Shown: piece by piece, positions 13,862-32,028 of the stretch
Layout: every line of letters begins with the position of its first letter
Position numbering within the stretch: position 1 is the first letter of the stretch
Assembly: GCA_963714925.1 (NCBI GenBank)
Contig: CAVQQK010000018.1
Location: 60,361 to 124,360 of the forward strand
Direction: 5' to 3'
Length of the DNA: 64,000 nucleotides
Origin: an uncultured beta proteobacterium
GTDB lineage: Bacteria; Pseudomonadota; Gammaproteobacteria; Burkholderiales; SG8-39
Position numbers and translations under genes: made by a program
Notes under the pieces: model-generated
Databases searched by the model: none
The model's input: only the letters and a program-made list of their open reading frames with translations
Told to the model about the DNA's origin: nothing

Positions 13862-13989
13862 CCGCGCGGCATTTCGCCCGGGAGTCCCGATCGATCCCGC
13901 GAATATTGGCCTGCTGCAGTGGGGTGCCCGGCCCAGTTTGATCTACGTCAATCTCCAATTTCGGAACACCATTAAACATGTTCTGAGTC

Positions 13990-14189
13990 GTAATTCCTGG
14001 CGAATTGACGTTGCACCGGGAAAAGAAGGCGGGCCCAGCGTACAAGGATCTCGCCGCAAAATACAAGGCAACTAGGATGCCGTGGGCATGCTGGTCGGCA
14101 AGATCAAGAGGGTCAAGGGACATCCGAAGATTGGCGCGACCAATGACGAATTGAAGGCGGCCGTCGGGCGCGGGTTGTCCACACAGTAA
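13990..14189 (+). pseudogene. Degraded class-I cytochrome c (c551/c8-type) relic
   Basis: One frame reads EKKAGPAYKDLAAKYK; the next reads GN*DAVGMLVGKIKR...NDELKAAVGRGLSTQ*. Collinear with the c551 GPAYKDVAAKY...IK core, but CXXCH is lost (ELTLH) and there is a frameshift and an in-frame TAG. Confidence 0.4.
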
Positions 14190-14244
14190 CGCGAGTCGAT
14201 GGGGGGAAAGCGGGCCGCAGCCGGCTTGTTGCCCGAGGTGAAGC

Positions 14245-14258
14245 TTGATTTGGATCAA
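14245..14258. promoter_or_regulatory. Perfect FNR/Anr-type box TTGAT-N4-ATCAA
   Basis: GCTTGATTTGGATCAAGC palindrome centred ~127 bp upstream of the 14379 start codon. Confidence 0.6.
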
Positions 14259-14378
14259 GCCTCCCCGGGGAGCGTCGACTGTGGCCTTGAGTGAAAGGGG
14301 GCGTGCGTTGCAGCCCATGGTTTTTCGCTCGTGTGCGGATGTATGCCGTGTTGACGCCGACCGAGGTAGGAGCCCGAC

Positions 14379-15370
14379 GTGCCCAAGCACATCGTCCGAT
14401 TGATCATTCTGATTGTCGGTGGCCTCGCCGCAGGGTTGACCGCGAAGTGGTATTTCACCACCGAGTCGTTTTACGAATACGGCCACTATCGCGCTGACTC
14501 GCTGCCGGAAATCGCCGCTCAGGCGCCGGCGTTCCAGACCGCCCGCTATTGCCAGAGCTGCCATGTCGAGCGGCATGCGCAGTGGTCGGCGAGCAACCAC
14601 AAGTCGGTGACCTGCGAGGTGTGTCACGGCGCGGCCCAGGGCCACCCGCAGAAAGGTAAGTTGCCGATTCCCGCCGATACGCGAAAACTGTGCTCGCTAT
14701 GCCATGAAAAGATGGCAGAACGACCCCGCACGCAACCCCAGATCGACTTGGCGCAGCACGGCGCGGGCCAGCAGTGCATCGTCTGCCACAACCCCCATTC
14801 GCCCAAGCTGGCGGGCGCCGCGGCCATGGTCGCTGGAGATGCCGCGGCGGGCGCGAGGAAGCACGCGGAAAGTTGCGCCAGCTGCCACGGCGAGAGCGGC
14901 GTCAGCCCGAACGATACCTGGCCGAATCTGGCTGGTCAGAACGCCGCCTATCTCGCCCGCATCCTCGCGGCGTACAAGTCGGGCGACCAGACCGACGTGA
15001 TGATGTCGCCTGTGGCGCAAACGCTGAGCGATGCCGACGTGCAGAACCTTGCCGGCTACTACGCGGGCTTGAGTTGCCCGGTGCCCACGCGCACTGCGAG
15101 TGGGGGCGCTGCCGCCGGCAAGCTACTGGCCAAGAACTGCGAGGCCTGCCACGGCGAGACCGGTATCGGGGCAATCCCGCCTGGCCCCATATTGCAGGGC
15201 AGAAGTCGACGTACCTCGCCAATACGCTCAAGGCGTTCCGCGCCGGACTGCGCAAGGATCCGATGATGGCAGGCGTGGTTCGGGGTCTGAGCGACGCGGA
15301 TATCGCAAACCTGGCCGCCTACTACGCAGCTCAAAGCTGCGGGCCAGCGTTGCCAGCAAAGGGGGGATGA
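14379..15370 (+). pseudogene. Membrane-anchored hexaheme cytochrome c (tetraheme NrfB/c3-like N-part fused to a diheme c4-like C-part), frameshifted in this assembly
   Basis: CQSCH, CEVCH, CSLCH, CIVCH, CASCH and CEACH. The frame switches 0 to 2 at G-run 15168-15171, and the second c4 half ([15 protein letters not shown]...AAYYAAQSC) continues in ORF 14774-15370. Confidence 0.7.
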
Positions 15371-16216
15371 TGAAACGCGAAGCGATCAGCGCATTGCGCG
15401 CAAGGCGTGTGTTTCTGCGCAAGGCCGGTCGCGCGGCCGCCGTTGCGGGCGCCGCCGTGGCCGCAGGGACGGTGGGCGTCGTGCAGAAGCTGGCCGCAAA
15501 GAGCGAAACCGCCCCGGGCGCGCCCGTTCCCAACAGCGGATTACGACTGGACCCAGCACCGCTGGGGGTTCGGTGTCGATGCGACCAAATGCATCGGCTG
15601 CCTGCGCTGCGTCGAGGCGTGCAAGCGGGAGAACGACGTCCCGGGCACCGCGCATCACTTCCGCACCTGGGTCGAGCGCTACGTCTATCTCGAGGGCGAG
15701 GACAAGCCGCGAATCGACAGCCAGCAGGACCCCGTGAACATCGAGGCATCTGGTTCGGAAAGCGAGTACCGCTTCGCGAACCGCTACCAGGACGCGAAGG
15801 TGGAGAAGGCCTTCTTCGTGCCCAAGCTGTGCAACCACTGCTCGCACCCGGCCTGCGTGCAAGTGTGTCCGGTCGGCGCTACCTACAAGACCGAGGACGG
15901 CGTGGTGCTCATCGACCACGACTATTGCATCGGATGCCGGTACTGCGTGCAGGCCTGCCCCTACGGCGCGCGTCTGTTCAACGAGGAAAAAGGCGTGTCC
16001 GACAAGTGCACCTGGTGCTATCACCGTATCACGAAGGGACTGCAGCCGGCGTGCGTCGAGGTCTGCCCGGTCGGCGCGCGCATTTTCGGCGACCTCAACG
16101 ACAGCCAAAGCCAGATCAGCCTGTTCATCCGGAACAATCGCGTGCAGGTGCTCAAGCCGGAGACCGGCAATGCGCCGAACGTCTTCTACGTCGGCATCGA
16201 CAAGGAGGTGGTCTGA
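15367..16216 (+). pseudogene. Tat-exported 4Fe-4S ferredoxin-type subunit (NrfC/PsrB/HybA-like), frameshifted in this assembly
   Basis: Tat signal [21 protein letters not shown] in frame 15367. The four-cluster body (CIGCLRC, CNHCSHPAC, CIGCRYC, CTWCYHR...CVEVCP) is in frame 15407-16216, with the switch near 15490-15540. Confidence 0.7.
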
Positions 16217-17382
16217 TGGAAGCGATCATTCACTACGCGCCGTACACGGGCTGGGTGTACCCGAACGAGACGGTGATCGAGTGGTCCGTAGCGATCGTCG
16301 TCTATCCCTATATCACCGGGCTGGTGGCGGGCGCGTTTACGGTATCGAGCCTGTACCAGGTGTTCGGCTTCGAGCGGCTGAAGCCGGTGGCCCACTTCGC
16401 TTTGCTGACTTCGCTGGGTTTCATGTTTTTCGTGCCGTTGCCGTTGCTGCTGCACCTCGGCCACCCGGAACGCGCGTTCAACGACCTGCTGACGCCGCAC
16501 CTGACTTCGGCGATGGCCGTGTTCGGCTATTTCGCGACCTTTTACATTGTCTTGCTGCTGAGGGACTGGTTCGCGTTTCGGCCTTACATCGTCGAGCAGG
16601 CGCAGAAACGGAACGGCTTGCGGGGCATGTTCTACCGCGTGCTGACGCTCGGTTCGTACGACGTGTCCGACAAGGCGATGAGCTATGACAGGAAGTGGAT
16701 CTTCGCGCTGGCGGTCGTCGGGATACCGGGCGCGCACGGCCTGCACGGCTATGTCGGGTTCATGTTCGGTTCGCTCAAGTCGCGCGAATGGTGGTCGTCG
16801 GATCTCATGCCGCTCGTGTTCCTTTTTTCTGCGATCATCTCCGGCGTGGCTGCGATCGTGATTGCTATGTTGCGAGCTGCAAGCTGCGTAGGGTGCCGAT
16901 GGACCTAGCGTGCCTCAAAGGCCTCGCGTATACGCTGTGGGGGTTCATCATGGTCGCTCTTGTCCTGGAGGCGCTTGAGTTCTCCAATATCATCTACAAG
17001 GCCGGGAGGGCGTGGACATGATCGTGCAATACGTCACCGGGCCGCTCCTCGTGCCTTACTTCGTCATGCAATTCGGCGTCGGCGCCGTCATGCCGTTACT
17101 GCTGCTCACTTATATCATCTGGCGCGGCACCAGCGGAAAGCTGTGATCGCGGGTACCACGATCAGCGCATGCCTGGTGTTACTCTCGGTATTCATGATGC
17201 GCTGGAACGTCGTTATCGGTGGGCAGGAGATTTCCAAGACGGGCCAGGGACTGTTGGAATATCAAGTCCAGTTGTTCGGCAAGGAGGGTCTGTTTGTTTC
17301 GCTGCTACTGGTTTTTGCACCGCTGCTCATGCTGTTGGGATTGACCCGGCTGTTTCCGCCGTGGGTGGACAAAGTGGCATGA
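16216..17382 (+). pseudogene. NrfD/PsrC-family polytopic membrane quinone-interacting subunit, three frameshifts in this assembly
   Basis: Start ATG overlaps the upstream stop (TGATG). The hydrophobic NrfD-like sequence continues through four frames, with switches at ~16865-16885, 17008-17010 (G-run) and 17147-17149 (A-run). Confidence 0.7.
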
Positions 17383-18613
17383 AGATTCTCCTGGCAGGCA
17401 TGCTTGCCGCTGCCGTGGCGATTTCAGGGGTCTCGCGCGGCGCTGCAGCGCAAACTGCAACCGTCAAGCCCGGCTCCGATGACGCGCTGAGGGCGGTATA
17501 CGCCACGCCGGTCGAAGTCGCGGAGGGCGGGCGCATTGCGGAAGCTTCGTGCGCGCGCTGCCATGGCGCCAACGGGATCAGTGCCACCAAGGGCGTGCCC
17601 CATCTCGCGGCGCAGCGCGCGGCGTATCTCGATCTCCAGCTGCGCGCCTACCGGCACGGCGACGCGTGCTCAAAGCGCCATGACCGGGATCGTGAGGTAC
17701 TTGAGCGATGACGCACTGGTGAGGGTCGCGGCCTACTACGCGAGCCTCGATCCGCCGCGGCCGGCGACGGCCCCGGCCAAGGCGACGCCGTCGAAGCTCG
17801 ACCCGGTACAGGCGGGCAAGGACGCGGCAGCCGGCTGCGGCGGCTGCCACGGCGAAACCGGCATCAGCAAGACGCCTGGCATGCCGAGTTTGGTCGGGCT
17901 CGACCCGGAATACTTCGTCGCGGCCGTGAACGCATACAAGACCGGCCAACGCAAGAACGACATGATGAAATCGCTCGTTGGGGCCCTAAACGAGGAGAGC
18001 GTGAACAACCTGGCGCTCTACTATGCGCTGCAAGAGCCCGCCAAGGCGCAGACGCCGGCCCCCGGCGACCAGGCGGCAGGCAAGGCGGCGGCTGCGTCCT
18101 GCGCCGCATGCCATGGCGACCACGGGGTCAGCGGCAACCCCGCCACGCCGAGCGTTGCCGGTCAGGACGCCGAGTACCTCGCTGCCGCGCTGCGCGCCTA
18201 CAAGGACGGGTCGCGCAAGGACGAATCGATGAAAGGGCCCGCGGCGGCGCTCGACGAACGCGCGCTGCGGAACATCGCGGCGTATTACGCGGCCCAGCAG
18301 CCGCAGCCGCTCAAGGTACGCAGGCCGCTCACCACCGCGGAGTGGACCGAGCGCTGTGACCGCTGTCACGGCCCCAAGGGGCAACAGCACCGACCCGCTG
18401 ATTCCGCGCCTTGCGGCGCAGCGCGTAGACTGGCTCGAGCAGGTCCTGCACGCCTATCGCACGGGTGCGCGCAAGAGCGCGGCGATGGCCGCCATGTCCG
18501 CGTTGATGAAGGAGGCGGATGTGCGGGACCTTGCTGCTTACTATGCGCGTCAAACGGCGCGCGCGGTCACCTACGTGGTGCTGCCGCCGGCGAACACGAG
18601 GCGCGACAAATGA
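17379..18613 (+). pseudogene. Periplasmic tetraheme cytochrome c built from four class-I (c4-half-like) domains, two frameshifts in this assembly
   Basis: Signal peptide MKILLAGMLAAAVAISG. Motifs CARCH, CGGCH, CAACH, CDRCH, each followed by an AAYYA-type motif. Frame switches at ~17661-17670 and 18372-18381. Start overlaps the nrfD-like stop (ATGA). Confidence 0.65.
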
Positions 18614-19413
18614 AAGAGGAACCGAAAGTGAGTGGCGCGCCGCTGCACCGGCTTTATCACCATTTTTCAGAGCTGCCCTACAGCATGCTGGTCATGTACA
18701 CGGCAACCTTGCTCATCCTCGGCACCGCCTACCTGTTCGCCGGAATTTACCTGTTTCACTCCTACTCCGGAAAAGACGGAAATCCGAAAACACTGTCTTA
18801 CGACGACATCGTCATCGCCTACAGCGGCAGCGGCGAGGGTTCGCGTCTCGAGTCGGCGCTGCGCGGATCGATGTCCGCCATGCTGCCGCGGGACGAGCTC
18901 AGTTCGCTCGTCTCATGGGTTCAGGAGGGCGGCGAACGCGCCAGGTACGAAAAGGAGATTAAGCTGCTGTTCGACAAGCGCTGCATGCTCTGCCACGACG
19001 GCAGCAACCCGCATCTGCCGAACCTGAACGGCTACGACAATGTGCAAAAAGTCACCGAGCGGGACACCGGTGCCGCACTGCCCACACTGGTGCGCGTCTC
19101 GCACATCCACTTTTTCGGGCTCACGTTCGTCTTTTTCATCGTGGGGACTATTTTTGGTCATGCCTACGTGCGACCGGTATGGTTCAAGTGCACCGTCATA
19201 GTACTTCCGTTCGTCGCGCTTACGCTGGATATCGGTTCCTGGTATTTCACCAAGATCTACCACCCGTTCGCCTGGGTGGTGATGATCGGCGGCGGCCTCA
19301 TGGGCCTGTCGTTCGCGTTCATGTGGGTGGTGTCCATGTACCAGATGTGGTTCTCGCGGACGCCCTCGGTCGTCACGCAAAGGCAGCGCGGCGAGAGCAC
19401 TGACGTTGGCTGA
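18610..19413 (+). CDS. Integral membrane protein with a single CXXCH motif (CMLCH); family not recognised
   Basis: 267-aa intact ORF, ATGA overlap with the upstream gene, about 4 hydrophobic helices, and a soluble loop carrying FDKRCMLCHDGSNPHLPNLNGY. Confidence 0.6.
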   Translation: MKEEPKVSGAPLHRLYHHFSELPYSMLVMYTATLLILGTAYLFAGIYLFHSYSGKDGNPKTLSYDDIVIAYSGSGEGSRLESALRGSMSAMLPRDELSSLVSWVQEGGERARYEKEIKLLFDKRCMLCHDGSNPHLPNLNGYDNVQKVTERDTGAALPTLVRVSHIHFFGLTFVFFIVGTIFGHAYVRPVWFKCTVIVLPFVALTLDIGSWYFTKIYHPFAWVVMIGGGLMGLSFAFMWVVSMYQMWFSRTPSVVTQRQRGESTDVG

Positions 19414-19633: not shown

Positions 19634-20686
19634 TCAGTACACCTTGTGGTAGAAGCGCGTTTCGACGGGCAGGGGCATGTCCGCTGTCTGCACGCGTACC
19701 GTCACGACGTACTGCGTGTTGCGGCTCAATCTAACGTACTGCCCGTAGGCCGGAACGTTGTTCAGCGTGATGGGTTCGAGTATCTTCGAGACCCCCGTGC
19801 CATTGAGTTGCGCGACGCGCAGGCCGACCGTGGCGCCGGCGACCGGCGTCTTGCTGGCGCGGTCGAACAGCGAAACGTTGACGTGGTAATAGCTGCTCCC
19901 GCTTGGAACCCCGCCGTGCAGAGATCGTTCGGCGGAATTCTGCGGATAGGCACGCAAGACCTCCGCCGGCAGGAAGCCAAGATAGATCTCCATCCCGCCG
20001 ACCACCTTAAAATTACCCGCGCGCTTCGCCGGCGCCGCGGTGGTACTGGACGCCTCGCGCTTCGGCGCTGCCACAGGGTTGAACATGTAGACGATCGCGT
20101 TGCGAATTTCGGCATCGCTGAGGTCGGACCTGTCGCCGCGCGGCGGCATGCCCCCATGCCCGCGGATCGCTGAGCGGACGAGCTGGTCGAGTCCCTGGCT
20201 GAGCCGCGGCGTCCAAGCCTGGTGGTCGCCGATCCTGGGTGCGCCGCCGACGCCCTCCTGATGGCACTTGCTGCACTGCGCCTCGACGACCTGCTCGCCG
20301 GTGAGCTGGACGCGCAGGGATTTCGCGCTGCCGGGCTCAACCCAGTGGCCGCCCGACTGGTTGACCATGTAGGTGATCGCGCGTTGGATCTCCAGATCGG
20401 AGAGCTTTGCGTTGCCGCCGTGCGAAGGCATCTCGCGTATGCCCTTGAGCGCGTGCTCGGTGAGGCTGGTGAGCCCTTGCTCAGCGCGCTTGCTCCACGC
20501 GTTCCTGTCGCCGATTCTCGGCGCGCCCTTCGCGCCCGAGCCGTGGCAGGCGATGCATACCGACTCCACCACTTCCTTGCCACTGCGCACACCGTCGTCG
20601 GCCCGCGCCTCGAGGAACGCGAGCGCGGCGGCGATCACGAGAAGGCTGGCCAGCGCCAGGCGCGTCGGGATATTGATAGTCGACAT
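19634..20686 (-). CDS. Diheme cytochrome c (two c5-type domains) fused to a C-terminal beta-rich, possibly metal-binding, domain
   Basis: Signal anchor, then CIACHGSGAKGAPRIGD...MP and CSKCHQEGVGGAPRIGD...MPPRG (c5 pattern). The 130-aa tail is MEIYLGFLPAE...YYHVNVSLFD...YGQYVRL. Start placed at the Met at 20686. Confidence 0.75.
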   Translation of the reverse strand: MSTINIPTRLALASLLVIAAALAFLEARADDGVRSGKEVVESVCIACHGSGAKGAPRIGDRNAWSKRAEQGLTSLTEHALKGIREMPSHGGNAKLSDLEIQRAITYMVNQSGGHWVEPGSAKSLRVQLTGEQVVEAQCSKCHQEGVGGAPRIGDHQAWTPRLSQGLDQLVRSAIRGHGGMPPRGDRSDLSDAEIRNAIVYMFNPVAAPKREASSTTAAPAKRAGNFKVVGGMEIYLGFLPAEVLRAYPQNSAERSLHGGVPSGSSYYHVNVSLFDRASKTPVAGATVGLRVAQLNGTGVSKILEPITLNNVPAYGQYVRLSRNTQYVVTVRVQTADMPLPVETRFYHKVY

Positions 20687-20730
20687 CCTGTGATGATACC
20701 AATTTCTGGCGTGCAACAAAAAACGAACCG

Positions 20731-22149
20731 TCAGCGCGCCTCCGGCTGCGGCAGAGTGAGAATCGCTTCCAGACCGCCGCTCGGTCGGTTCTTCAATACA
20801 AGATCGCCGCCGTGCGCGTGGGCGATGTTGCGTGCGATGCCCAGGCCGAGCCCGGTTCCGCCGGTCTCACGACTGCGCGAGGACTCGCCCCTGAAGAAAG
20901 GCTCGAACGCGCGTTCGAGCTCTTCATCGGCAATGCCGGGTCCTTCATCCAGCACGCGGATCGTGATCCGTTTCGCTCCTTCCTCGGCCCTGAGCGTCGC
21001 GCGCTTGCCATAGCGGATCGCGTTGTCGACGAGATTGCTGAGGCAGCGGCGCAGCGCCAGCGGCCTGCAGGCGAACGGATGCGCGAGGCGGCCTTCGACC
21101 TCGACCGTGTTTCCCATGTCCTGGTAATCGGTCTGCAGGCTCTCCAGCAGCGCCATGAAGTCCACGCGTTGCACGGGTTCGCTTGCACTCGCGTCGCGCA
21201 TGAAGTCGAGGGTGTGGGCGACCATCGACTCCATTTCCTCGAGGTCCTTCGAGAACTTTGCGCGCAGCGCTTCGTCGTCCAGCAATTCGGTGCGCAGCCG
21301 CAGCCGCGTGATCGGCGTCTTCAAGTCGTGCGACATGGCCGTGAGAATGCGGGTCCGGTCGCTGATGAAGCGCGCCAGTCGCCCCTGCATGGTATTGAAC
21401 GCGCGGGCGGCGCGGCGCGCTTCGATCGGCCCGGTCTCGGGCAGCGGAGGACGATTGATGTCCTCGCCCAGCTGCTCCGCGGCGCTCGCCAGCGTCGAGA
21501 GCGGGCCGGTCACCCAGCGTACTGCCACCAGCGACAGCGCGACGACGGTACCGAGGAGCACGAGCAGCGTCAGGCCGAGGCGCAGCGGCATCTCCGCGGA
21601 CTCGGGGGAAACAAATGAATCGAAGGTCACCACAGCGCCGTCGCGAAGCACCACTTGGACCACGAAAAACGTACTCTCCGAATGCATCGTCTGCATTCCG
21701 CCGCCGGGCATGGGGTGCTGCATCATCGGCATGCGGGGCGGACTTCTCTGCTCTCGTTGCCCGTAGCGCGCCGGGACACCCGCTGCCCTCACCCCCCGAA
21801 CGTGCATGCCCTCGCCGAGGGCGTAGCGCAATACGGTCGCGAACATCGAAAGCCGCATGTCGGCCTCCGGTGACCCACGGTCCGTCGCCATCGGGGGGCG
21901 GTCGAGCGAAATCGCGAGTGGCGGCGCGTTGAAGACCGAGACGATCCTGCGGCGTTCCTCGGGGGAGACCGAATCGAGCAGCTTGCTGACGTCCGCGACG
22001 CGCTGCGCCACCTGCATGCCGCTCGCGCGGTAGAGCAGTTGGTCGCGTTCGCTCAGATTGAGGTAGGCGGTGGCCAGCTGCGCAAAAACCAATCCGCACA
22101 GCAGGATCAGAACGAGGCGTCCGAAAAGACCGCGTGGCAGCAGGCGCAC
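20731..22149 (-). CDS. Two-component sensor histidine kinase (HAMP-HisKA-HATPase; CpxA/RstB-like architecture)
   Basis: Two TM segments flank a periplasmic domain with Met/His-rich PPRMPMMQHPMPGGGMQTMH. H-box MSHDLKTPITRL and G-boxes GTGLGLGIA. Confidence 0.85.
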   Translation of the reverse strand: MRLLPRGLFGRLVLILLCGLVFAQLATAYLNLSERDQLLYRASGMQVAQRVADVSKLLDSVSPEERRRIVSVFNAPPLAISLDRPPMATDRGSPEADMRLSMFATVLRYALGEGMHVRGVRAAGVPARYGQREQRSPPRMPMMQHPMPGGGMQTMHSESTFFVVQVVLRDGAVVTFDSFVSPESAEMPLRLGLTLLVLLGTVVALSLVAVRWVTGPLSTLASAAEQLGEDINRPPLPETGPIEARRAARAFNTMQGRLARFISDRTRILTAMSHDLKTPITRLRLRTELLDDEALRAKFSKDLEEMESMVAHTLDFMRDASASEPVQRVDFMALLESLQTDYQDMGNTVEVEGRLAHPFACRPLALRRCLSNLVDNAIRYGKRATLRAEEGAKRITIRVLDEGPGIADEELERAFEPFFRGESSRSRETGGTGLGLGIARNIAHAHGGDLVLKNRPSGGLEAILTLPQPEAR

Positions 22150-22871
22150 TAGCGCTTCACCTCGACCGGCACGGCGAGCACGTATCCCTCGCCGCGTACG
22201 GTTTTGATGATCTTTGGATCGGTCGGGTCGTCGCTAAGACGATGCCGCAACCGGCTCACCTGATTGTCGATCGAGCGGTCGAACGGCTCGGCTTCGCGGC
22301 CGTGCGTAAGCATCATCAGCTGATCGCGGCTGAGTACGTGGTTGGGGTGGTCGAGGAAAATCCGTAGCATCCGGAACTCCGCGCCGCTAAGCGACATGAC
22401 CACGCCGTCGGGCGAAATCATGTGGCGCGCGACGGTATCGAGGCGCCACCCGGCGAAGGTCATGGTGCGCGCCTCCTCGGCGCGCAGATCCCGCGGCAGG
22501 CTGCGGTGACGCCGCAACACGCTCTTGATGCGGGCGAGCAGTTCGCGCGGGCTGAAGGGCTTGGCGAGATAGTCGTCCGCGCCGATCTCCAGGCCGACAA
22601 TCCGATCGGTCTCCTCTCCCCGTGCGGTGAGCATGATGACCGGCATATCCGAATCGGCGCGAAGTTTGCGGCACAGCGCGAGACCGTCGTCGCCGGGCAG
22701 CATGAGGTCGAGCACGATCAGGTCGATCTTGCTGCGCGACAGCGCCGTCCACATCGCCTTGCCGTCGGCAACGACCGTGGCCTTGCAGCCGCTCTTGCGC
22801 AGGTACTCGCCAAGGAGGCCGCGAATTTCGGCGTCATCGTCGACGACAAGGATGTGATCGATGCTTTCCAT
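22149..22871 (-). CDS. OmpR-family DNA-binding response regulator
   Basis: REC (ILVVDDD...VLDLMLPGDDG...MLTARG...GADDYLAKPF) plus a winged-helix C-terminus (IKTVRGEGYV). Overlaps the kinase start. Confidence 0.9.
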   Translation of the reverse strand: MESIDHILVVDDDAEIRGLLGEYLRKSGCKATVVADGKAMWTALSRSKIDLIVLDLMLPGDDGLALCRKLRADSDMPVIMLTARGEETDRIVGLEIGADDYLAKPFSPRELLARIKSVLRRHRSLPRDLRAEEARTMTFAGWRLDTVARHMISPDGVVMSLSGAEFRMLRIFLDHPNHVLSRDQLMMLTHGREAEPFDRSIDNQVSRLRHRLSDDPTDPKIIKTVRGEGYVLAVPVEVKR

Positions 22872-23074
22872 GGGCGTATCTATATCCGCTGGCCAGGCCG
22901 CCGTGCAACGGATTTGTAGCCTACTGTAACCGGCTCCGTTTCCGATACGCGGGCGTACAAAAACGCGACGCGACGCTTACATCGGCATGGCGTAATGGGA
23001 ACCAACGCGGCAGCGCATCAGACCGACGCGCAGGAGCCGCAGATTTCCAGACTTCACCAAACGGAGATTCGATC

Positions 23075-23692
23075 ATGAGAAACATCACCAAAATCGCATT
23101 GGCCGTCGGCACGGCACTGTCGCTCGGACTGACTGCCACGGGACTGAGTGCACAGCCCTCCGGCATGGGGTGGGGAGGCCACGGCCCGGGTCACGGCATG
23201 CACGGTTACGGCATGGGACCCAACGCTGGCATGGGATACGGCATGCACGGCTACGGCATGGGACCCAGCGCTGGCATGGGTTACGGCATGCACGGCTACG
23301 GTATGGGCTTCGGCGCGGATGCCGAATCGGTAGAAGGCGGTCTGGCAGGTCTGAAGTCGGCGCTGGGAATCACCGCCAAACAGGAGCCCGCGTGGCAGGC
23401 ATTCGTTGAGAGCGTGAAGCAGCGGGAGGAAAGCAGGGCGTCGTGGTTCGCCAAGATGCACGAAGCGCGGGCTGCCGGTTCGCTGCCGGAACTGCTGGCG
23501 CAGCAAGATGAGGTATTCAAGCAGCATCAAGCCGAAAGACAGGCAACGACATCGGCACTGACGGAACTCTATGCCGCACTCTCGCCGGAGCAGAAAACGA
23601 TCGCGGATCGGCGCTTCGGCGGATACGGCCCGCAATACGGTGGGGGATATGGCCGGGGATACGGCGGCGGGCCCGGCGGGCGCAATCGCTAG
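23075..23692 (+). CDS. Periplasmic Spy/CpxP-family-like protein with N-terminal Met/His/Gly repeats and a Gly/Tyr-rich tail
   Basis: Signal peptide, 3 x 15-aa GMHGYGMGP(N/S)AGMGY repeats, and a helical core with LTXXQ-like segments (ITAKQEPAWQAF; LTELYAALSPEQK). Divergent from the RR/HK pair. Confidence 0.65.
   Translation: MRNITKIALAVGTALSLGLTATGLSAQPSGMGWGGHGPGHGMHGYGMGPNAGMGYGMHGYGMGPSAGMGYGMHGYGMGFGADAESVEGGLAGLKSALGITAKQEPAWQAFVESVKQREESRASWFAKMHEARAAGSLPELLAQQDEVFKQHQAERQATTSALTELYAALSPEQKTIADRRFGGYGPQYGGGYGRGYGGGPGGRNR
23195..23329 (+). repeat. 3 x 45-bp in-frame tandem repeat encoding GMHGYGMGPxAGMGY
   Basis: Direct reading of the DNA and protein repeat inside CDS 23075-23692. Confidence 0.85.
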
Positions 23693-23800
23693 CGTGGGGG
23701 AAAGGGCCGGGCGACAAGTCCGGTCCAACCCTTGGAATTCGCCGTTCCAGCCATACCGCACGCGTAATCACAGCGAGCGCGTGCAGGACGGGAGACAAGG

Positions 23801-23890
23801 ATGATGTGGGGATATGGCGAGATCGGCAAGAACGAGTTCGAGGAGAAGCGGCGTGACCTCTCCGCCAGCTGGGCCGGTGGCCGTGGATAG
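23801..23890 (+). CDS. Candidate 29-aa upstream small ORF overlapping the multicopper oxidase start region
   Basis: GGAGA lies 5-6 nt before ATG 23801. High GC3 and no AGA/AGG codons, whereas the overlapping oxidase frame uses 4 AGA/AGG codons here. Its TAG overlaps candidate GTG starts 23877/23883. Confidence 0.25.
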   Translation: MMWGYGEIGKNEFEEKRRDLSASWAGGRG

Positions 23891-27711: not shown

Positions 27712-27783
27712 CCGCCAGGCGGCGACGCACGCTGCGCGGCGGCCGCATGACCGCGTGCCGCGCTGGACTTCGCGCGAACGCTA

Positions 27784-28386: not shown

Positions 28387-29526
28387 CTACTTTTCCGCCT
28401 CGGTCGCGTAGAAGGAGGACAGGCTCTCGATGATCGAGTCGCTGTACGGCAGGCTCATCCTGTGCATCATGGAGCTTTCGCGCCGGTCGTCCCGATACGC
28501 CCGCAGCGCCATGATGAGGTAGTCCTTGTCCTGACCGCGGATTCTCGGCACCGCGAGCGCGGGGTTTTTGTCCGCTTCCGGGCTGTGGCAGCGGTTGCAC
28601 TTGGCGGTCAGGTCCCCGACGATGGTCTGTCCCTTTTCCGCCGGCCGCGACTTCTGCACCGAATAGAACGCGGCGATGTTTTCGATATCCTTTTCGCTGA
28701 GTCCGGTCACGTAAGTGCGCATATCCTCGCGCTTACGGGTGGTTCGATAGGCCTTGATCGCTTCGACGAGGTAGGTCGGATCTTGTGACGCGAGACTCGG
28801 GGTCGCGCTGTCGGTGCTTACCCCGTTCGCGCCATGACAGCCACCGCACACGGCGCTCAGCGGCTCCCCGGCGGCGGGATTGCCGAATGATGGCGTCGGT
28901 CGCTCGGCGGGCGTCTGCGACGCGAAATACAACGCCAGACTCTCCGTTTCCAGCTTGCCCAGGCTCCGCAGCATCGGATGCATCGGGGACTGCTTGCGCT
29001 CGGCGTGGAGGTACTCCTGGATCGCAGCCACGAGATAGCGCGGTTGCTGGCCGGCCAGATTCGGGGTGCCGGAAATCTTGCTGTTGCCGTCTGCGCTGTG
29101 ACAGGTCGCGCACGCGGCCGCCAGCTTCTTGCCGGCGTCGTAGGGCGAGAAGCGCTGCCCCGCCGTGTCCGAGGCGGCAGGGACGCGCGGCAGGCTGGCG
29201 TAGTACGCGGTCACGTTGCGCGTATCTGCATCGGTCATGCGTCCCGCCAGCGCCTTCAACGCGGCGTGAAAGCGCTGGCCCTGCTTGTAGGCGGCGATCG
29301 ACGCAATGAGATAGCGCTCGCGCTGCGCCGCCAGGTGTGGAATGCCGGGCGCGGTACCCCTGCCGTCCACCCCATGACAGCCCTTGCATTCGCGCTCGGC
29401 GAACGCCTTGCCCGCGGCGAGGTCGGCCGCCGGCGCGGCGCCCGAGGTCCCCGGGCTCGATTGGTCCTGGTCGGGGCAGCCCAGCAGGGCCGCAGACAAT
29501 GCGACGCACAGCAAAACACGCTTCAT
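28387..29526 (-). CDS. Tetraheme cytochrome c lipoprotein (four class-I/c4-half domains)
   Basis: Lipobox LLGC, then CKGCH, CATCH, CGGCH, CNRCH, each followed by YL...AYxxG...M and AxYxA motifs. GGAGA RBS before ATG 29526. Intact paralog of 17379-18613. Confidence 0.8.
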   Translation of the reverse strand: MKRVLLCVALSAALLGCPDQDQSSPGTSGAAPAADLAAGKAFAERECKGCHGVDGRGTAPGIPHLAAQRERYLIASIAAYKQGQRFHAALKALAGRMTDADTRNVTAYYASLPRVPAASDTAGQRFSPYDAGKKLAAACATCHSADGNSKISGTPNLAGQQPRYLVAAIQEYLHAERKQSPMHPMLRSLGKLETESLALYFASQTPAERPTPSFGNPAAGEPLSAVCGGCHGANGVSTDSATPSLASQDPTYLVEAIKAYRTTRKREDMRTYVTGLSEKDIENIAAFYSVQKSRPAEKGQTIVGDLTAKCNRCHSPEADKNPALAVPRIRGQDKDYLIMALRAYRDDRRESSMMHRMSLPYSDSIIESLSSFYATEAEK

Positions 29527-29712
29527 TGGAATCTCCAAGAATGTGGTGCCGGCCGGTTCATTCCCGCTTTCGGTCGACTGCGACGTTCGCATGGCCGGCA
29601 TTTTATTCCCACGAGCAAGGGAAGCATAGTTCGGTCTCGCGCACCGGATGGCCCGTCACGCATCGCCTCGCCCAATGCGCCGTTCGGTTATCCGCATCGG
29701 CCGCGCGATCGT

Positions 29713-31674
29713 TCATGCGACTCCGTTTTCGACGAACCCGATGATCACCAAGACGAGCAGGACGAGACCGATGCTGATCAAGGTGAATCCCAGGATCTTC
29801 GATCCCCGGGTCATCGGCCCCGAGGGGGCGTCGACCAGGTGTTTTTGCAGCTCGCCGGTCTCGACCAGGCGGTTGTATTCCAGCGTGTGCTCGCGCTTGA
29901 ATTCCTCCAGCGACACCGCGCCCGTGAACATCACGATATCGAGCGGGAATTTGTCCGGACGAAAGTGGTTGTTGAAGAAATGCACCGTGAACAGAAACAC
30001 CGCCGCAAGGATCGCTTCCTCGCCGTGGACGAGCGTCGCGACATTGAAAACCACGCCGGGCAGGACCGAAGCGACCAGGTTCGGAAACCACAGCATGAGG
30101 CCGCTGCCACCGATGATCGCCACGCCCCAGAACACTGCCCAGTAGTCGAACTTTTCCCAGTAGGTCCAGCGATCGAACATGGGACGCGGCCCCATGCCGA
30201 AGAACCACCGGAACATGGCGATCATGTCCGTGAGATCCTCCCAGCGCGGTACCAGCGAGTTGGGCCCGAACCATCGGAATGTCTTCCAATTGCGGCCGAT
30301 GGACAGGACGAAATAGATTAGCTGCGCCACGAATATTGTCAGGAAAATCGACGCGCCGACGCGATGGATCACGGCGGCCACCTTCGGGCTGCCGAGCTTC
30401 TGCATGACGACCGGCGCCCAAGGACTGTTGGCGTAGAGCGCCGACATGCCGGTGAGCACCAGCGTCATCACGGTCAGCGCCAGCACGAGATGCATCAGAC
30501 GCCAGACCGGCCCGAAGCGCTGGTAATGCTTGCCTTGCAACGCCTGCATCTCGTCGGTTTTGACGTAGGGCCGGGTTTTGCGCGCCTGGCGATCCTTGTA
30601 TTCCCGGTAAAACCACAACCCCATGTGTGCCCAGAAGAAGGCAAACACTCCGACCAGCAGTGCGATCATGAATCGCGCCGCGATCCACAGGTACGGATAG
30701 CGCTCGAAATCGTTGGCGTGGCCGTGTGGCTCGAACGTGGCGAAGCCCGCCGTCGCACCGCGGTGGCATTTCTGGCAGGTCTGTACCCGATTTGACGGAT
30801 GCATGCTCGATGTCGGGCTCTTGACGCGCTGGATCGTGTGGCTGCCGTGGCAATCGAAGCACTTGGCCGTATAGGCGTAGCCCAGGGTGCCGACCTGGCC
30901 ATGATAGGTGCCGAGGTAGGTTTTCAGGTTGTCCTCATGGCAGTTGCCGCAGTTGCGCGTGATGACGAGCCTGGTCGAGGCCAATTCCGGGGATTCGACG
31001 TCGTGGGTCGTGTGGCAATCCGAACAGATGGCTGCCCAGGGTTTTTGGTTCTCCAGGACCGCCTTGCCGTGCACTGATGTCGCGTAGGCCTTGCGCTCCT
31101 CGACGTGGCAGGCGCCGCAGGCGTTCGGAATATTGAGGCGCCATTCCGTACGCTCGTAACTGTCCTTCGGATAGACGTAATGGGCGTCGTGGCAGTCGTA
31201 GCAGGTGGCGTTGGTGCGCGACTGATCCTTGCGGTTCGGGCGCGCATGGATGGACTTCATGTACTTGTCGATCTGCTTGACGACGACCCCCAGTCTCGCG
31301 AACTCCTGCGTCTTGTTTTCCTTTTGCGCCGCCGCCCACAGATCCTCGTGACATTGCACGCAGCTCACATTGCGCTGCACGCCTTTCTGGTGCGGAATTT
31401 CGGTGATGTCCTTGTGGCACTCCACGCACTGGCGCTTGCCGTGCACGCTTTTGGAGAACTTGTCGGGCCTCACGTGCAGCGGGCGCATTTTCCCGTCCGC
31501 ACCCGGCATCGCGAACCCTTCGTTGCCGTGACAGCCCAGGCATATCGCGCTTTCGATCTTGGGTGCGGCGGCTTCGGCTGCCTTGGCGGCGGTGTCGTCG
31601 GCTGCGAGCGCCGCTGCGCCGGCCAGACAGACGACGCTGGCCACGATCCATTGCCCGATTACTTTAGTGCGCAT
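29713..31674 (-). CDS. Nonaheme cytochrome c domain fused to a multi-helix cytochrome-b-type membrane domain (CbcL-like quinone-pool oxidoreductase)
   Basis: 654 aa from ATG 31674. Signal peptide and nine CXXCH (CLGCH, CVECH, CVQCH, CYDCH, CGACH, CSDCH, CGNCH, CFDCH, CQKCH), then ~6 TM helices with conserved His (WAHMG, RLMHLV, VIHRVG, TLVHGEE...FTVHFF). Confidence 0.8.
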   Translation of the reverse strand: MRTKVIGQWIVASVVCLAGAAALAADDTAAKAAEAAAPKIESAICLGCHGNEGFAMPGADGKMRPLHVRPDKFSKSVHGKRQCVECHKDITEIPHQKGVQRNVSCVQCHEDLWAAAQKENKTQEFARLGVVVKQIDKYMKSIHARPNRKDQSRTNATCYDCHDAHYVYPKDSYERTEWRLNIPNACGACHVEERKAYATSVHGKAVLENQKPWAAICSDCHTTHDVESPELASTRLVITRNCGNCHEDNLKTYLGTYHGQVGTLGYAYTAKCFDCHGSHTIQRVKSPTSSMHPSNRVQTCQKCHRGATAGFATFEPHGHANDFERYPYLWIAARFMIALLVGVFAFFWAHMGLWFYREYKDRQARKTRPYVKTDEMQALQGKHYQRFGPVWRLMHLVLALTVMTLVLTGMSALYANSPWAPVVMQKLGSPKVAAVIHRVGASIFLTIFVAQLIYFVLSIGRNWKTFRWFGPNSLVPRWEDLTDMIAMFRWFFGMGPRPMFDRWTYWEKFDYWAVFWGVAIIGGSGLMLWFPNLVASVLPGVVFNVATLVHGEEAILAAVFLFTVHFFNNHFRPDKFPLDIVMFTGAVSLEEFKREHTLEYNRLVETGELQKHLVDAPSGPMTRGSKILGFTLISIGLVLLVLVIIGFVENGVA

Positions 31675-32014
31675 TGCGTTCGATTCCGTCGTTGAATTCT
31701 GGGTCGCCGCGCGCGGTGCTGCGGGAATCCGTGCAACGAGCGCTGACGGTCCGGTGCCTCGGAATGAGCGCAGGACCGCGGCACGAAAATCCCGTCCGAC
31801 GCATGAAGCACGCGCCCGGCACGGGCCCGATGCCTCGAGACGGCCTTGACCCATCGCAGAGGCGCGAACGTCGCGGGACATCGGCGCGAAAGCGCTTCAC
31901 GTGCATGCGCGTTCCCGATGTAAGCCGATTGAATTTGGCGCAAAGGAGTGGATTCGGTCCACCGGTTCGGAAAATTTCCGTCCCGCCAAGTTAGCGACAG
32001 CGGCAGGATCGGAT

Positions 32015-32028
32015 TTGATGCAGATCAG
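32015..32028. promoter_or_regulatory. FNR-type box (9/10), TTGAT-GCAG-ATCAG
   Basis: Lies in the 418-bp non-coding gap upstream of the CbcL-like gene, ~340 bp from its start. Confidence 0.35.

What the first reader, a model, noticed from the sequence alone, without database searches (positions are those of the whole stretch)
14245..19413. FNR-boxed five-gene multiheme / NrfC-NrfD-type redox operon that fits no named complex
All five genes are tightly coupled, with ATGA/TGATG overlaps at every junction. In order they are: (1) a membrane-anchored hexaheme cytochrome, a tetraheme NrfB/c3-like part fused to a diheme c4; (2) a Tat-exported four-cluster ferredoxin subunit; (3) an NrfD/PsrC-type quinone-site membrane subunit; (4) a periplasmic tetraheme protein made of four c4-half domains; (5) a 4-TM protein with a single CMLCH motif. 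There is no catalytic molybdopterin, siroheme or octaheme subunit. It therefore looks like a stand-alone quinone-pool:periplasmic-cytochrome electron module with 11 c-hemes and 4 FeS clusters. It is related to, but not the same as, NrfBCD, alternative complex III or Qrc. A perfect extended FNR palindrome (GCTTGATTTGGATCAAGC, 14243-14260) about 120 bp upstream suggests anaerobic induction. Direction (quinol oxidation versus reverse flow from an external donor such as Fe(II) or reduced sulfur) and the partner are unknown.
Basis: partly seen in the sequence, partly recalled or inferred. Interest (0 to 1): 0.65.

Follow-up and report, generated by a model that had tools for sequence, protein, structure and literature searches.

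The report
Anaerobic quinone-to-cytochrome electron-transfer operon
This is a five-gene operon, common in uncultured soil, aquifer and sediment bacteria but never studied biochemically, that most likely wires the membrane quinone pool to periplasmic cytochromes when oxygen is scarce; the copy in this window looks broken only because of sequencing errors.

Summary
The five overlapping genes, the 6+4+1 CxxCH motifs, the Tat/four-cluster ferredoxin, the NrfD-type subunit and the perfect FNR palindrome are all present. In this window, however, genes 1-4 read through only after seven frameshifts are corrected. Near-identical Illumina contigs from other metagenomes carry the frame-restoring state at every site. 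dN/dS is normal, and feoB nearby shows the same kind of indel, so these are most likely assembly errors and not decay.

The cluster is conserved. The same gene order occurs in 21 of 54 related loci, all from MAGs. It usually lies within a larger set: MtoAB/PioAB-type porin-decaheme, a c551-like shuttle, a nine-heme/cytochrome-b CbcL-like protein and a paralogous tetraheme lipoprotein. An FNR-type box precedes gene 1 in 30 of 34 loci and also precedes the other operons of this set.

Genes 1-3 form one module with the order and architecture of NetBCD, DsrJOP or ACIII, but they fail every curated family cutoff. Genes 4-5 form a separable module. Gene 5 (Pfam PF27139) has no solved structural relative and is widespread in Zetaproteobacteria.

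The parts
14243..14260 (.). Perfect 18-bp palindrome with an exact FNR/CRP-family core, TTGAT-TTGG-ATCAA. Its centre lies ~127 bp upstream of the g1 start.
   Evidence: A box with <=1 mismatch lies within 300-400 bp upstream of g1 in 20/22 and 30/34 related loci.
14379..15370 (+). g1: membrane-anchored hexaheme cytochrome c. It has an N-terminal TM helix, four closely spaced CxxCH (c3/c7/MtrA-like, enough extra His for bis-His ligation) and a C-terminal dihaem c4 domain (His/Met). A 1-nt deletion at 15171/2 breaks the frame.
   Evidence: The C-terminal half matches cytochrome c4 6q2u at 1.1e-23. The indel is absent in X1, X2, X3 and X9 contigs.
15367..16216 (+). g2: Tat-exported ferredoxin with four [4Fe-4S]-type Cys groups (NrfC/PsrB/DsrO/TtrB-like), lacking a molybdopterin-like domain. 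The frame is shifted around 15513-15524.
   Evidence: TtrB 205 against cutoff 416; DsrO 203 against 200. (PsrB 2vpw_B 6.5e-46). (two 1-nt insertions in all four runs restore the frame).
16216..17382 (+). g3: NrfD/PsrC-type integral membrane subunit (~8-10 TM helices), the presumed quinone/quinol site. It has three frame-shifting indel sites (16850-16864, ~16997-17001, 17136).
   Evidence: Pfam NrfD 6.5e-32. Far below all NCBIfam cutoffs. No PDB sequence match even with a profile. Indels are restored in the reads.
17379..18613 (+). g4: Sec-exported periplasmic tetrahaem protein made of four c4-half (class I, His/Met) domains. It has 1-nt insertions at 17662 and 18378-18382.
   Evidence: PdsA-like 141 bits against cutoff 330; a 99.4%-identical X1 contig and a 99.3%-identical X3 contig lack the 18378/82 insertion.
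18610..19413 (+). g5: 267-aa membrane protein of Pfam PF27139 (Aq_1264_TM). Layout is TM1, a periplasmic monohaem domain (C125-x2-C128-H129, invariant M88), then three TM helices. An invariant R162/H165/D207/W211/K215 cluster sits at the periplasmic membrane face. It is intact in the window.
   Evidence: AF2 pLDDT 81, pTM 0.70; no Foldseek PDB match with E<=0.001; 719 50%-identity clusters.
13938..14190 (+). A second FNR-like box (13938-13951, 1 mismatch) followed by a decayed remnant of the c551/MtoD-like small cytochrome gene. That gene precedes g1 in relatives.
28387..29601 (-). Tetrahaem lipoprotein with four c4-half domains, a paralogue of g4. In relatives it lies directly downstream of g5.
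   Evidence: (43/71 loci).
29713..31881 (-). Nine-haem cytochrome c fused to a multi-TM cytochrome-b-type domain (CbcL-like). It is a second candidate quinone-pool coupling protein of the same gene set.
32015..32028 (.). FNR-like box (TTGATGCAGATCAG, 1 mismatch) 134 bp upstream of the CbcL-like gene.
   Evidence: CbcL-like genes that head an operon carry a box in 9/9 loci.

Best explanation
The locus is an intact-in-nature operon, controlled by an FNR/CRP-family regulator, with two co-transcribed modules.

Module 1 (g1-g3) is a quinone-pool : periplasmic-cytochrome oxidoreductase of the NrfD-subunit type. It has a quinone/quinol site in g3 and a four-cluster FeS relay in g2. The haem wire in g1 is anchored to the membrane and ends in a built-in dihaem c4 domain. 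This gives the modular logic of ACIII, NetBCD, DsrJOP and Qrc without any catalytic subunit.

Module 2 (g4-g5) supplies a soluble tetrahaem c4-type carrier and a membrane monohaem protein of an uncharacterised family. That protein probably gives c-type cytochromes a second docking or redox point at the membrane.

Together with the MtoAB/PioAB-type outer-membrane conduit, the c551-like shuttle and the CbcL-like protein found beside it in relatives, the operon forms the inner-membrane end of an extracellular electron-transfer chain that is switched on when oxygen is low.

My committed direction is inferred, not shown. During anaerobic oxidation of Fe(II) or minerals, electrons pass from the high-potential c4-type haems through g1 and g2 to quinone in g3, assisted by proton-motive force. 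This makes quinol for quinol-dependent nitrate reductase and for reverse electron flow. The module is probably reversible.

The seven frameshifts in the window are consensus errors of the assembly.

Shown: gene content, motifs, conservation of order, conservation of the box, absence of the indels in near-identical populations, and purifying selection.
Inferred: complex formation, the quinone site, direction of flow and the identity of the regulator.
For: Domain content.

Conserved order and context in 80 non-redundant g5-bearing loci from two look-ups (all but L002 are MAG contigs):
- g4 lies directly upstream of g5 in 59/71 loci.
- g1-g4 are colinear in 21/54 loci, and g1-3 lie elsewhere in the locus in 10 more.
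- A CbcL-like gene is present in 29/44 loci and MtrA/B in 17/44 loci of >=15 kb.
- MtrB passes TIGR03509 (414 against cutoff 240) and MtrA passes the DmsE family (225 against 192).
- No MtrC gene is present beside them.

Regulation: boxes precede g1 in 30/34, CbcL-like in 9/9, EB_dh in 10/12 and MtrA in 12/17 loci. Internal genes have about none. Density is 0.157/kb against about 0.007/kb expected.

Frameshifts are artefacts:
- Frame-restoring states occur at all seven sites in Illumina contigs of X1, X2, X3, X9, X4, X7 and X17.
- Contigs 99.3-99.4% identical lack the 18378/82 insertion.
- feoB carries the same kind of indel relative to 99.9%-identical contigs.
- dN/dS is 0.15-0.18, the same as between intact orthologues.

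Expression: contigs 90-99% identical (mostly 90-95%) are present in an estuary metatranscriptome, and g4-g5 words occur in at least 12 RNA runs.

Independent support: in Ferrigenium straubiae a hexahaem (4 bis-His + 2 His-Met) / 4x[4Fe-4S] / PsrC-like trio in the same gene order is among the strongest induced transcripts under nitrate-reducing Fe(II) oxidation (bioRxiv 10.64898/2026.01.22.701106).

The g5 family is widespread in Fe(II)-oxidising Zetaproteobacteria and is followed there by class-I cytochromes.
Against: No biochemical data exist for any member.

All characterised cytochrome/NrfC/NrfD modules that use ubiquinone-range donors (ACIII, NetBCD, NrfBCD) oxidise quinol. With ubiquinone (ubiD is in the window) and His/Met c4 haems, the forward direction is the downhill one.

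Only 17/44 long loci contain MtrA/B, so the link to an outer-membrane conduit is frequent but not obligatory.

Sequence homology to the Ferrigenium trio could not be tested here.

The box is shared by FNR, ANR, DNR and NnrR-type regulators, so the signal could be O2 or NO.

RNA evidence comes from assembled contigs of relatives and cannot exclude DNA carry-over.

In the stretch 14961-17727 the best Illumina contigs are only 92-97% identical. For five of the seven sites the 'restored' state is therefore seen in relatives and not demonstrably in the same strain.
Confidence: 0.6

Rival explanations
1. Same machine running forward. It would be an ACIII- or NetBCD-like quinol dehydrogenase that oxidises ubiquinol and reduces the c4-type cytochromes (the g1 C-terminus, g4 and the tetrahaem lipoprotein). 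Those then feed cytochrome-c-dependent denitrification enzymes or cbb3 oxidase under low oxygen. Alternatively they pass electrons outward through the porin-cytochrome to Fe(III), Mn(IV) or humics.
For: The closest characterised analogues (ACIII, NetBCD, NrfBCD) work in this direction (own knowledge; PMC8076601; PMC8805035). The g1 c4 domain resembles cytochrome c4, a sequence also found in PDB entry 8snh, which holds a cbb3-oxidase subunit. Flow from UQ to c4 is thermodynamically downhill. FNR-type control is typical of microaerobic and denitrifying respiration (own knowledge). The preprint authors also favour quinol oxidation.
Against: In Ferrigenium the trio is induced with Fe(II) as the only donor. 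In that situation cytochrome c is already reduced and quinol is the scarce species (the reasoning is mine). The neighbouring conduit is of the MtoAB/PioAB type without MtrC. The g5 family is widespread in obligate Fe(II) oxidisers.
Confidence: 0.3
2. The operon is a genuine pseudogene cluster in this strain. It would be decaying after loss of the upstream small cytochrome and rearrangement of the gene set.
For: There are seven frameshifts in 4.2 kb while most flanking genes are intact. A truly decayed small-cytochrome remnant lies upstream. The CbcL-like/lipoprotein pair has been moved 9 kb away onto the other strand.
Against: There are no in-frame stops after frame correction, and every haem and cluster ligand is intact. 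dN/dS equals that of intact orthologues. All seven sites are restored in other populations, including contigs 99.3-99.4% identical. The same type of 1-nt indel breaks feoB relative to 99.9%-identical Illumina contigs. Long-read MAG loci L036, L073 and L078 show similar fragmentation.
Confidence: 0.08
3. The g1-g3 complex is itself a terminal reductase for a nitrogen oxide such as nitrite, acting at one of the g1 haems. This was speculated for the Ferrigenium complex.
For: The preprint's ProFunc-based suggestion and the induction under denitrifying conditions.
Against: There is no CxxCK or other catalytic-haem signature. All six g1 haems have standard CxxCH with plausible His or Met distal ligands. 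The cluster co-occurs with electron-transfer partners and not with N-oxide genes. The authors themselves call the idea highly speculative.
Confidence: 0.04

Closest known systems
Ferrigenium straubiae 'novel membrane-bound redox complex' (IMG genes 2878408594-596; bioRxiv 10.64898/2026.01.22.701106)
   Same: Same gene order and architecture as g1-g3. It has a hexahaem cytochrome with four bis-His haems followed by two His/Met haems, a four-[4Fe-4S] PsrB-like subunit and a PsrC/ActC-like membrane subunit. It is induced under anoxic, nitrate-reducing Fe(II)-oxidising conditions, which fits the conserved FNR-type box here.
   Different: It is described as three genes; no g4/g5 partners are mentioned. 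Sequence identity to the window proteins could not be measured here. Its function is also unknown.
NetBCD (+PdsA) of Aeromonas hydrophila (quinol dehydrogenase feeding MtrCAB)
   Same: Cytochrome-FeS-NrfD gene order, no catalytic subunit, clustering with an Mtr-type porin-cytochrome and with c4-like dihaem carriers. The PdsA model matches g1 at 83 bits and g4 at 141 bits.
   Different: g1 gives no hit to the curated NetB model NF049875, and the PdsA scores are far below the cutoff of 330. g1 carries a fused dihaem c4 domain and a TM anchor. The neighbouring conduit lacks MtrC. An extra g5 is present.
Alternative complex III (ActABCDEF)
   Same: A membrane-anchored multihaem wire (ActA-like), an FeS subunit and an NrfD-like quinone subunit, plus a terminal His/Met haem that hands electrons to soluble carriers. 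g2 matches ActB at 1e-22.
   Different: No molybdopterin-like ActB1 domain (g2 is 282 aa against ~1000 aa). Only one NrfD-like subunit, so no ActF. No ActD/ActE homologues. g3 has no detectable sequence match to ActC in the PDB.
DsrJOP module of DsrMKJOP
   Same: Anchored multihaem cytochrome, Tat FeS protein and NrfD-like protein in the same order. The window g2 marginally reaches the DsrO cutoff (203 against 200).
   Different: The intact orthologue scores 195, below 200. g3 scores 29-40 against a DsrP cutoff of 350. There is no DsrMK, six haems instead of three, and no sulfur-metabolism context.
QrcABCD / NhcABCD of sulfate reducers
   Same: Cytochrome c: quinone oxidoreductases with a periplasmic quinone site and an NrfD-like subunit. 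They are precedents for the cytochrome-to-quinone direction and for electrogenic operation (PMC8076601).
   Different: QrcC scores 105 against 400. No QrcB-like subunit is present. The c4-type high-potential haems and the proteobacterial ubiquinone context also differ.
Mto pathway of Sideroxydans lithotrophicus (MtoA-MtoB-MtoD-ImoA/CymA)
   Same: Relatives of the window locus carry decahaem-porin-small monohaem operons beside the cluster. The small cytochrome matches the MtoD structure 4xxl at 5e-8.
   Different: The inner-membrane partner here is an NrfCD-type module and/or a CbcL-like fusion instead of a NapC/NirT tetrahaem. In the window itself the porin-cytochrome genes are absent and the small cytochrome is a remnant.

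Membership tests
NrfBCD (cytochrome c nitrite reductase accessory module) | NrfC equivalog model TIGR03149 reached | tested here: not met
   148.5 bits (window) and 145.2 bits (L002) against a cutoff of 377.6.
NrfBCD (cytochrome c nitrite reductase accessory module) | NrfD equivalog model TIGR03148 reached | tested here: not met
   28-32 bits against a cutoff of 347.6.
NrfBCD (cytochrome c nitrite reductase accessory module) | Adjacent NrfA catalytic pentahaem | tested here: not met
   No such gene lies beside the cluster in the window or in related loci.
Alternative complex III | ActB with a molybdopterin-like domain fused to the FeS domain (~1000 aa) | tested here: not met
   g2 is 282 aa. 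It aligns only to the FeS part of ActB (residues 681-828 of 6btm_B).
Alternative complex III | Two NrfD-like subunits (ActC and ActF) plus ActD/ActE | tested here: not met
   There is a single NrfD-family gene. g4 and g5 have no ActD/ActE matches.
QrcABCD | QrcC equivalog NF041782 reached; QrcB present | tested here: not met
   105 bits against a cutoff of 400. No QrcB-like gene is present.
DsrMKJOP | DsrO equivalog NF045797 reached | tested here: inconclusive
   The window g2 scores 203.0 and the intact L002 orthologue 194.8, against a cutoff of 200.
DsrMKJOP | DsrP equivalog NF045798 reached; DsrM/DsrK adjacent | tested here: not met
   29-40 bits against a cutoff of 350. No DsrMK genes are present.
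NetBCD | NetB model NF049875 reached by the cytochrome subunit | tested here: not met
   No NetB hit for g1 at E<=0.01 or E<=1e-5. The model is in the library, because it hit an MtrA homologue at 39 bits.
NetBCD | Cytochrome-FeS-NrfD order next to an Mtr-type porin-cytochrome and a PdsA-like carrier | tested here: met
   The order g1-g2-g3 is met. MtrA/B is present in 17/44 loci of >=15 kb, and PdsA-like domains occur in g1, g4 and cyt379. This shows resemblance in organisation only.
NetBCD | Quinol dehydrogenase activity required for extracellular reduction | not testable with these tools
   Needs genetics or biochemistry.
NrfD/PsrC superfamily (Pfam PF03916) | Pfam gathering score reached over the full-length profile | tested here: met
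   g3 scores 111.8 bits against 25.8 and covers profile positions 9-309 of 313.
FNR/CRP-family regulated promoter | TTGAT-N4-ATCAA box upstream, conserved in orthologous loci | tested here: met
   An exact box is present in the window. Boxes occur in 30/34 g1 upstream regions at <=1 mismatch, and internal genes have about none.
FNR/CRP-family regulated promoter | Binding by FNR (as opposed to DNR/NnrR/CRP) and oxygen-dependent transcription | not testable with these tools
   Only indirect support is available: the Ferrigenium trio is induced under nitrate-reducing conditions.
Pfam PF27139 (Aq_1264_TM) | Precomputed Pfam hit in close homologues | tested here: met
   All 360 listed homologues from three searches carry PF27139. 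The local Pfam copy lacks the model.

The most novel reading that the evidence does not exclude
g5 (PF27139) would be a new class of membrane monohaem cytochrome with its own quinone-reactive or proton-coupled site at the periplasmic membrane face, formed by the invariant R162/H165/D207/W211/K215 next to the haem c. Together with c4-type partners and the g1-g3 module, it would be the long-sought entry point by which neutrophilic Fe(II) oxidisers and electron-uptake bacteria move electrons from periplasmic cytochromes into the quinone pool. That would explain why the family is widespread in Zetaproteobacteria and is linked to MtoAB-type conduits in Burkholderiales.
Probability: 0.15. Interest if true: 0.8.

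Novelty: new variant of a known kind. Interest (0 to 1): 0.55.

Why it matters
How Fe(II)-oxidising, mineral-oxidising and electrode-oxidising bacteria connect periplasmic cytochromes to the quinone pool is an open question. It is especially open under nitrate-reducing conditions, where quinol is needed but the donor enters at cytochrome c level.

This cluster is a concrete and widespread candidate for that step:
- The three searches found 3,205, 2,160 and 3,456 g5 homologues (overlapping sets), forming 719 clusters at 50% identity.
- It sits in a conserved regulon marked by the FNR-type box.

It also brings to attention a membrane cytochrome family with no solved structural relative. On the practical side, it shows that the apparent pseudogenisation in this assembly is an artefact. 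The locus should therefore be annotated as functional, and the assembly needs polishing.

Tried and rejected
- Pseudogene reading. Rejected on read evidence and on dN/dS.
- Filing under Nrf, ACIII, Qrc, Dsr or NetBCD. Rejected on curated cutoffs and missing subunits.
- PDB sequence searches. g3 found nothing, either as a single sequence or as a 14-sequence profile. g5 found only insignificant haem-motif matches.
- First AlphaFold model of g5, from a shallow alignment (34 sequences, 74-96% identity). It was unusable, with pLDDT 52. A 117-sequence alignment from three homologue searches gave pLDDT 81, but Foldseek against the PDB found nothing with E<=0.001.
- Promoter and terminator consensus scan. 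No sigma-70-like site was found, and terminator-like sites were at chance level.
- Literature. No paper combines NrfC, NrfD and MtoA. Zhong & Shi 2018 does not mention Nrf-type modules. Baker et al. 2022 lists NetBCD, PdsA, MtoC and MtoD as passengers but not this cluster. Nothing was found on aq_1264 or PF27139. The NetBCD paper (PMC6238070) is not held. A peat multihaem cytochrome preprint was irrelevant.
- Source genome. It was not found in the genome collection; the best g5 match is 88%. The organism is therefore placed only as an uncultured Burkholderiales-like betaproteobacterium, from its nearest relatives.

Full report
**What is in the sequence**

Between 14243 and 19413 on the + strand there are five genes whose ends overlap: ATGATGA at 15367, TGATG at 16214-16218, ATGA at 17379 and ATGA at 18610. 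The first starts at GTG 14379, behind an AGGAG.

The 18-bp palindrome GCTTGATTTGGATCAAGC lies at 14243-14260 and has an exact TTGAT-N4-ATCAA core. At up to 1 mismatch the window holds six such boxes, against 0.43 expected from shuffles.

Read literally, only gene 5 is an open reading frame. Genes 1-4 are spread over three frames. A MAFFT alignment with five relatives places the frame-shifting indels as follows:
- 15172: 1 nt deleted.
- 15522: 2 nt deleted.
- 16854/16863: 3 nt deleted and 2 nt inserted.
- 17001: 1 nt deleted.
- 17136: 1 nt deleted.
- 17662: 1 nt inserted.
- 18378: 1 nt inserted.

- g1: 330 aa, an N-terminal TM helix, four closely spaced CxxCH and a dihaem c4 domain.
- g2: 282 aa, an RRVFLRK Tat motif and four Cys groups.
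- g3: 389 aa, Pfam NrfD at 6.5e-32.
- g4: 410 aa, a signal peptide and four class-I domains, each with CxxCH and a Met.
- g5: 267 aa, one CMLCH and four TM helices.

**Are the frameshifts real?**

Words of this stretch occur in wetland, sediment, aquatic and estuary metagenomes. I laid Logan contigs of four runs on the operon. The frame-restoring state appeared at six sites: +1 at 15171/2, +1 and +1 at 15513/15524, +1 at 16997, +1 at 17136, -1 at 17662 and -1 at 18378/82. The seventh site (16850-16864) is restored in three further runs.

Contigs that are 99.3-99.4% identical over 17934-18757 lack the 18378/82 insertion.

In a control stretch (26000-32000) the contigs of X1 and X3 differ from the window by 0-2 bases per kb, so the same population is in those samples. 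Even so, the window carries 1-nt indels at 27006, 27018, 27051 and 27226 that split feoB. The assembly therefore has patchy indel errors.

Other evidence points the same way:
- The frame-corrected operon has no internal stops.
- All haem and cluster ligands are intact.
- dN/dS against eight relatives is 0.15-0.18, within the 0.11-0.22 range seen between intact orthologues.
- Long-read MAG loci L036, L073 and L078 show similar fragmentation.

I conclude that the frameshifts are consensus errors. There is one caveat. Between 14961 and 17727 the best Illumina contigs are only 92-97% identical, so for five of the sites the intact state is shown in relatives and not in the same strain.

**Conservation and context**

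Gene 5 has 3205 homologues in the protein collection. The 120 listed are 74-96% identical and all carry Pfam PF27139, 'Aq_1264_TM'.

One 103-kb contig (L002) shows the intact cluster, with products of 332, 282, 397, 412 and 266 aa. It lies directly behind a decahaem MtrA-like gene, an MtrB/PioB porin and a 96-aa monohaem cytochrome. It is followed by a 379-aa cytochrome, an EB_dh-domain protein and a 727-aa multihaem/cytochrome-b fusion.

A scan of species-representative genomes returned 79 loci, all from MAGs. They include Burkholderiales, unclassified Beta- and Gammaproteobacteria, Sulfuricaulis, Georgfuchsia, Rhodomicrobium, Xanthobacteraceae, Muproteobacteria and Mariprofundaceae. None was identical to the window; the best match was 88%.

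Counts from tblastn with the L002 proteins:

| Feature | Loci |
|---|---|
| g4 directly upstream of g5 | 59/71 |
| g1-g4 colinear upstream of g5 | 21/54 |
| g1-g3 elsewhere or inverted in the same locus | 10 more |
| Tetrahaem 'cyt379' directly downstream of g5 | 43/71 |
| CbcL-like gene present (loci >=15 kb) | 29/44 |
| MtrA/B present (loci >=15 kb) | 17/44 |

The porin passes the MtrB/PioB model (414 against 240). The decahaem passes the DmsE-family model (225 against 192). No MtrC gene flanks them, so they are of the MtoAB/PioAB type. The small cytochrome is c551/c552-like and matches the MtoD structure 4xxl at 5e-8.

In the window itself the lipoprotein tetrahaem (28387-29601, -) and the nine-haem/cyt b protein (29713-31881, -) lie 9 kb downstream. 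The small cytochrome survives only as a decayed remnant at about 14023-14190. No porin-cytochrome gene is present.

The rest of the window is core chromosome: dnaG, rpoD, ubiD, groEL, hemA and prfA.

**Regulation**

A TTGAT-N4-ATCAA box with up to 1 mismatch lies within 400 bp upstream of g1 in 20 of 22 loci. A wider count within 300 bp of each gene start gives:
- g1: 30/34.
- CbcL-like genes that head an operon: 9/9.
- EB_dh: 10/12.
- MtrA: 12/17.
- Internal genes: essentially none (g2 0/29, g3 0/36, g5 0/59).
- g4 when it heads its own unit: only 4/23.

Box density in these loci is 0.157 per kb, roughly twenty-fold above the shuffle expectation in the window. In the window, further boxes precede the small-cytochrome remnant (13938), feoB (25613) and the CbcL-like gene (32015).

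The whole gene set therefore behaves as a regulon of an FNR/CRP-family factor. Whether that factor is FNR/ANR (oxygen) or DNR/NnrR (NO) cannot be told from the sequence.

**What the parts are**

- g2 is closest to PsrB (2vpw_B, 6.5e-46), ArrB and the FeS part of ActB. Among curated models it is equidistant from TtrB (205 against 416) and DsrO (203 for the window, 195 for L002, against 200). It is far below NrfC, QrcC and HmcB.
- g3 is an NrfD-superfamily protein by Pfam. It scores only 28-40 bits on DsrP, NrfD, TtrC and HybB models whose cutoffs are 314-450. It has no PDB sequence match, even with a profile.
- The N-terminal tetrahaem of g1 has only generic multihaem matches. Its C-terminal half is a cytochrome c4 (6q2u, 1.1e-23). 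The curated NetB model gives no hit.
- g4 and the lipoprotein cyt379 are paralogous four-domain c4-type proteins. They are PdsA-like at 111-141 bits against a cutoff of 330.
- g5 is the least understood. It has 719 clusters at 50% identity. It is widespread in Zetaproteobacteria (Mariprofundus, Ghiorsea). In Mariprofundus micogutta it is followed by two monohaem cytochromes and one trihaem class-I cytochrome, then hemN and a globin. In other lineages it stands alone or next to an NnrS-like protein.

For g5, invariant residues across 117 sequences are C125, C128, H129, M88, R162, H165, D152, D207, W211 and K215. An AlphaFold model (pLDDT 81, pTM 0.70) gives TM1, a helical haem domain and a three-helix membrane bundle. 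The secondary-structure map places the R162/H165/D207/W211/K215 group at the periplasmic ends of TM2 and TM3. Foldseek finds no PDB relative.

**Comparison with what is known**

The logic of cytochrome wire, four-cluster ferredoxin and NrfD-type subunit without a catalytic subunit is that of ACIII, Qrc, Nhc, DsrJOP and NetBCD (PMC8076601; PMC8805035). Every membership test I could run failed or was borderline; see the membership table.

The closest description is a 2026 preprint on Ferrigenium straubiae. Three adjacent genes there encode three proteins:
- a hexahaem cytochrome with four bis-His haems followed by two His/Met haems;
- a four-[4Fe-4S] protein;
- a PsrC/ActC-like membrane subunit.

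[quoted passage not shown] This matches g1-g3 in order and architecture and fits the conserved box. I could not compare the sequences.

**Mechanism**

The evidence shows an operon conserved under purifying selection, marked by an FNR-type box, and encoding a quinone-site subunit, an FeS relay and 11 c-haems. It sits in a gene set for extracellular electron transfer.

I infer the following. g1-g3 form a complex that couples the quinone pool to high-potential periplasmic c-type haems. g4, and in relatives cyt379, are the soluble or lipid-anchored carriers. g5 is a second membrane redox point for class-I cytochromes.

For direction I commit, at modest confidence, to flow from cytochrome c to quinone during anaerobic Fe(II) or mineral oxidation. 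With Fe(II) as the only donor, quinol-dependent nitrate reductase needs quinol. The Ferrigenium trio is induced under nitrate-reducing Fe(II)-oxidising growth, and that preprint calls its hexahaem specific to denitrification. The adjacent conduits are MtoAB-type, and g5 is a hallmark of obligate Fe(II) oxidisers.

The main rival is the forward, ACIII/NetBCD-like direction. It is thermodynamically downhill with ubiquinone and is the direction of the nearest characterised analogues.

**Verdict**

- The genes form two modules, not one five-subunit complex.
- The operon is part of a conserved anaerobic electron-transfer regulon and is not stand-alone.
- The g1-g3 trio is no longer entirely undescribed.

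It is a new variant of the NrfD-subunit respiratory modules and includes a truly uncharacterised membrane cytochrome family.

Noticed in passing
window 25662-27711 (indels at 27006, 27018, 27051, 27226): feoB is split into overlapping ORFs by four 1-nt indels. These indels are absent from Illumina contigs that are otherwise 99.9% identical, so the assembly has patchy indel errors. An FNR-like box lies at 25613, upstream of feoB.
   Followed up: yes
window 13938-14190: A decayed remnant of the c551/MtoD-like small cytochrome gene that precedes g1 in relatives. The C-terminal 58 aa are recognisable, CxxCH is replaced by ELTLH, there is no signal peptide, and the frame is broken. It has its own FNR-like box at 13938-13951.
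   Followed up: partly
window 28387-31881 (- strand) and 32015-32028: An operon of a nine-haem cytochrome fused to a cytochrome-b-type membrane domain (CbcL-like) and a lipoprotein tetrahaem paralogous to g4. An FNR-like box lies 134 bp upstream. In relatives these genes flank the five-gene cluster directly.
   Followed up: partly
window 19634-25430: Several genes lie between the two cytochrome operons: a dihaem class-I cytochrome with a beta-rich C-terminal domain (19634-20719, -), a HAMP histidine kinase and an OmpR-type regulator (20731-22871, -), and a multicopper oxidase (23814-25430, +). These may be metal-redox related; I did not analyse them further.
   Followed up: no
window 14961-17727 compared with the flanks: Contigs from the same wetland runs are 99.9% identical to the window in the flanks but only 92-97% identical inside g1-g3. 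Either the window consensus blends strains or paralogues there, or this stretch is exchanged between strains. One related MAG carries three copies of the cluster (L008, L073, L078).
   Followed up: partly
L036, L073, L078 (long-read MAG contigs): Homologous clusters in these loci are also fragmented into several HSPs per gene. In L073 the flanking EB_dh and cyt379 still match as single pieces and the upstream CbcL-like copy does too, while a second CbcL-like copy downstream is split in two. This may be a systematic consensus problem at this multi-copy locus.
   Followed up: no
L084 7001-11292 (Mariprofundus micogutta); L064 1596-3612: Outside Burkholderiales the g5 family sits next to other partners. 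In Mariprofundus these are two monohaem cytochromes and a trihaem class-I cytochrome, hemN and a globin. In a gammaproteobacterial MAG the partner is a 10-TM NnrS-like protein. One UniRef record names the Mariprofundus protein 'Elongation factor-1 alpha', an evident misannotation.
   Followed up: partly
related loci L005-L083: FNR-type boxes mark the first gene of each operon of the set (g1, CbcL-like, EB_dh, MtrA) and almost never internal genes. This is a regulon-level signal that could be used to find further members.
   Followed up: partly
window 2642-3568: A tyrosine recombinase with an N-terminal SAM-like domain (XerC/XerD-type) lies next to an Ldh_2-family dehydrogenase. This is ordinary chromosomal context.
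   Followed up: no
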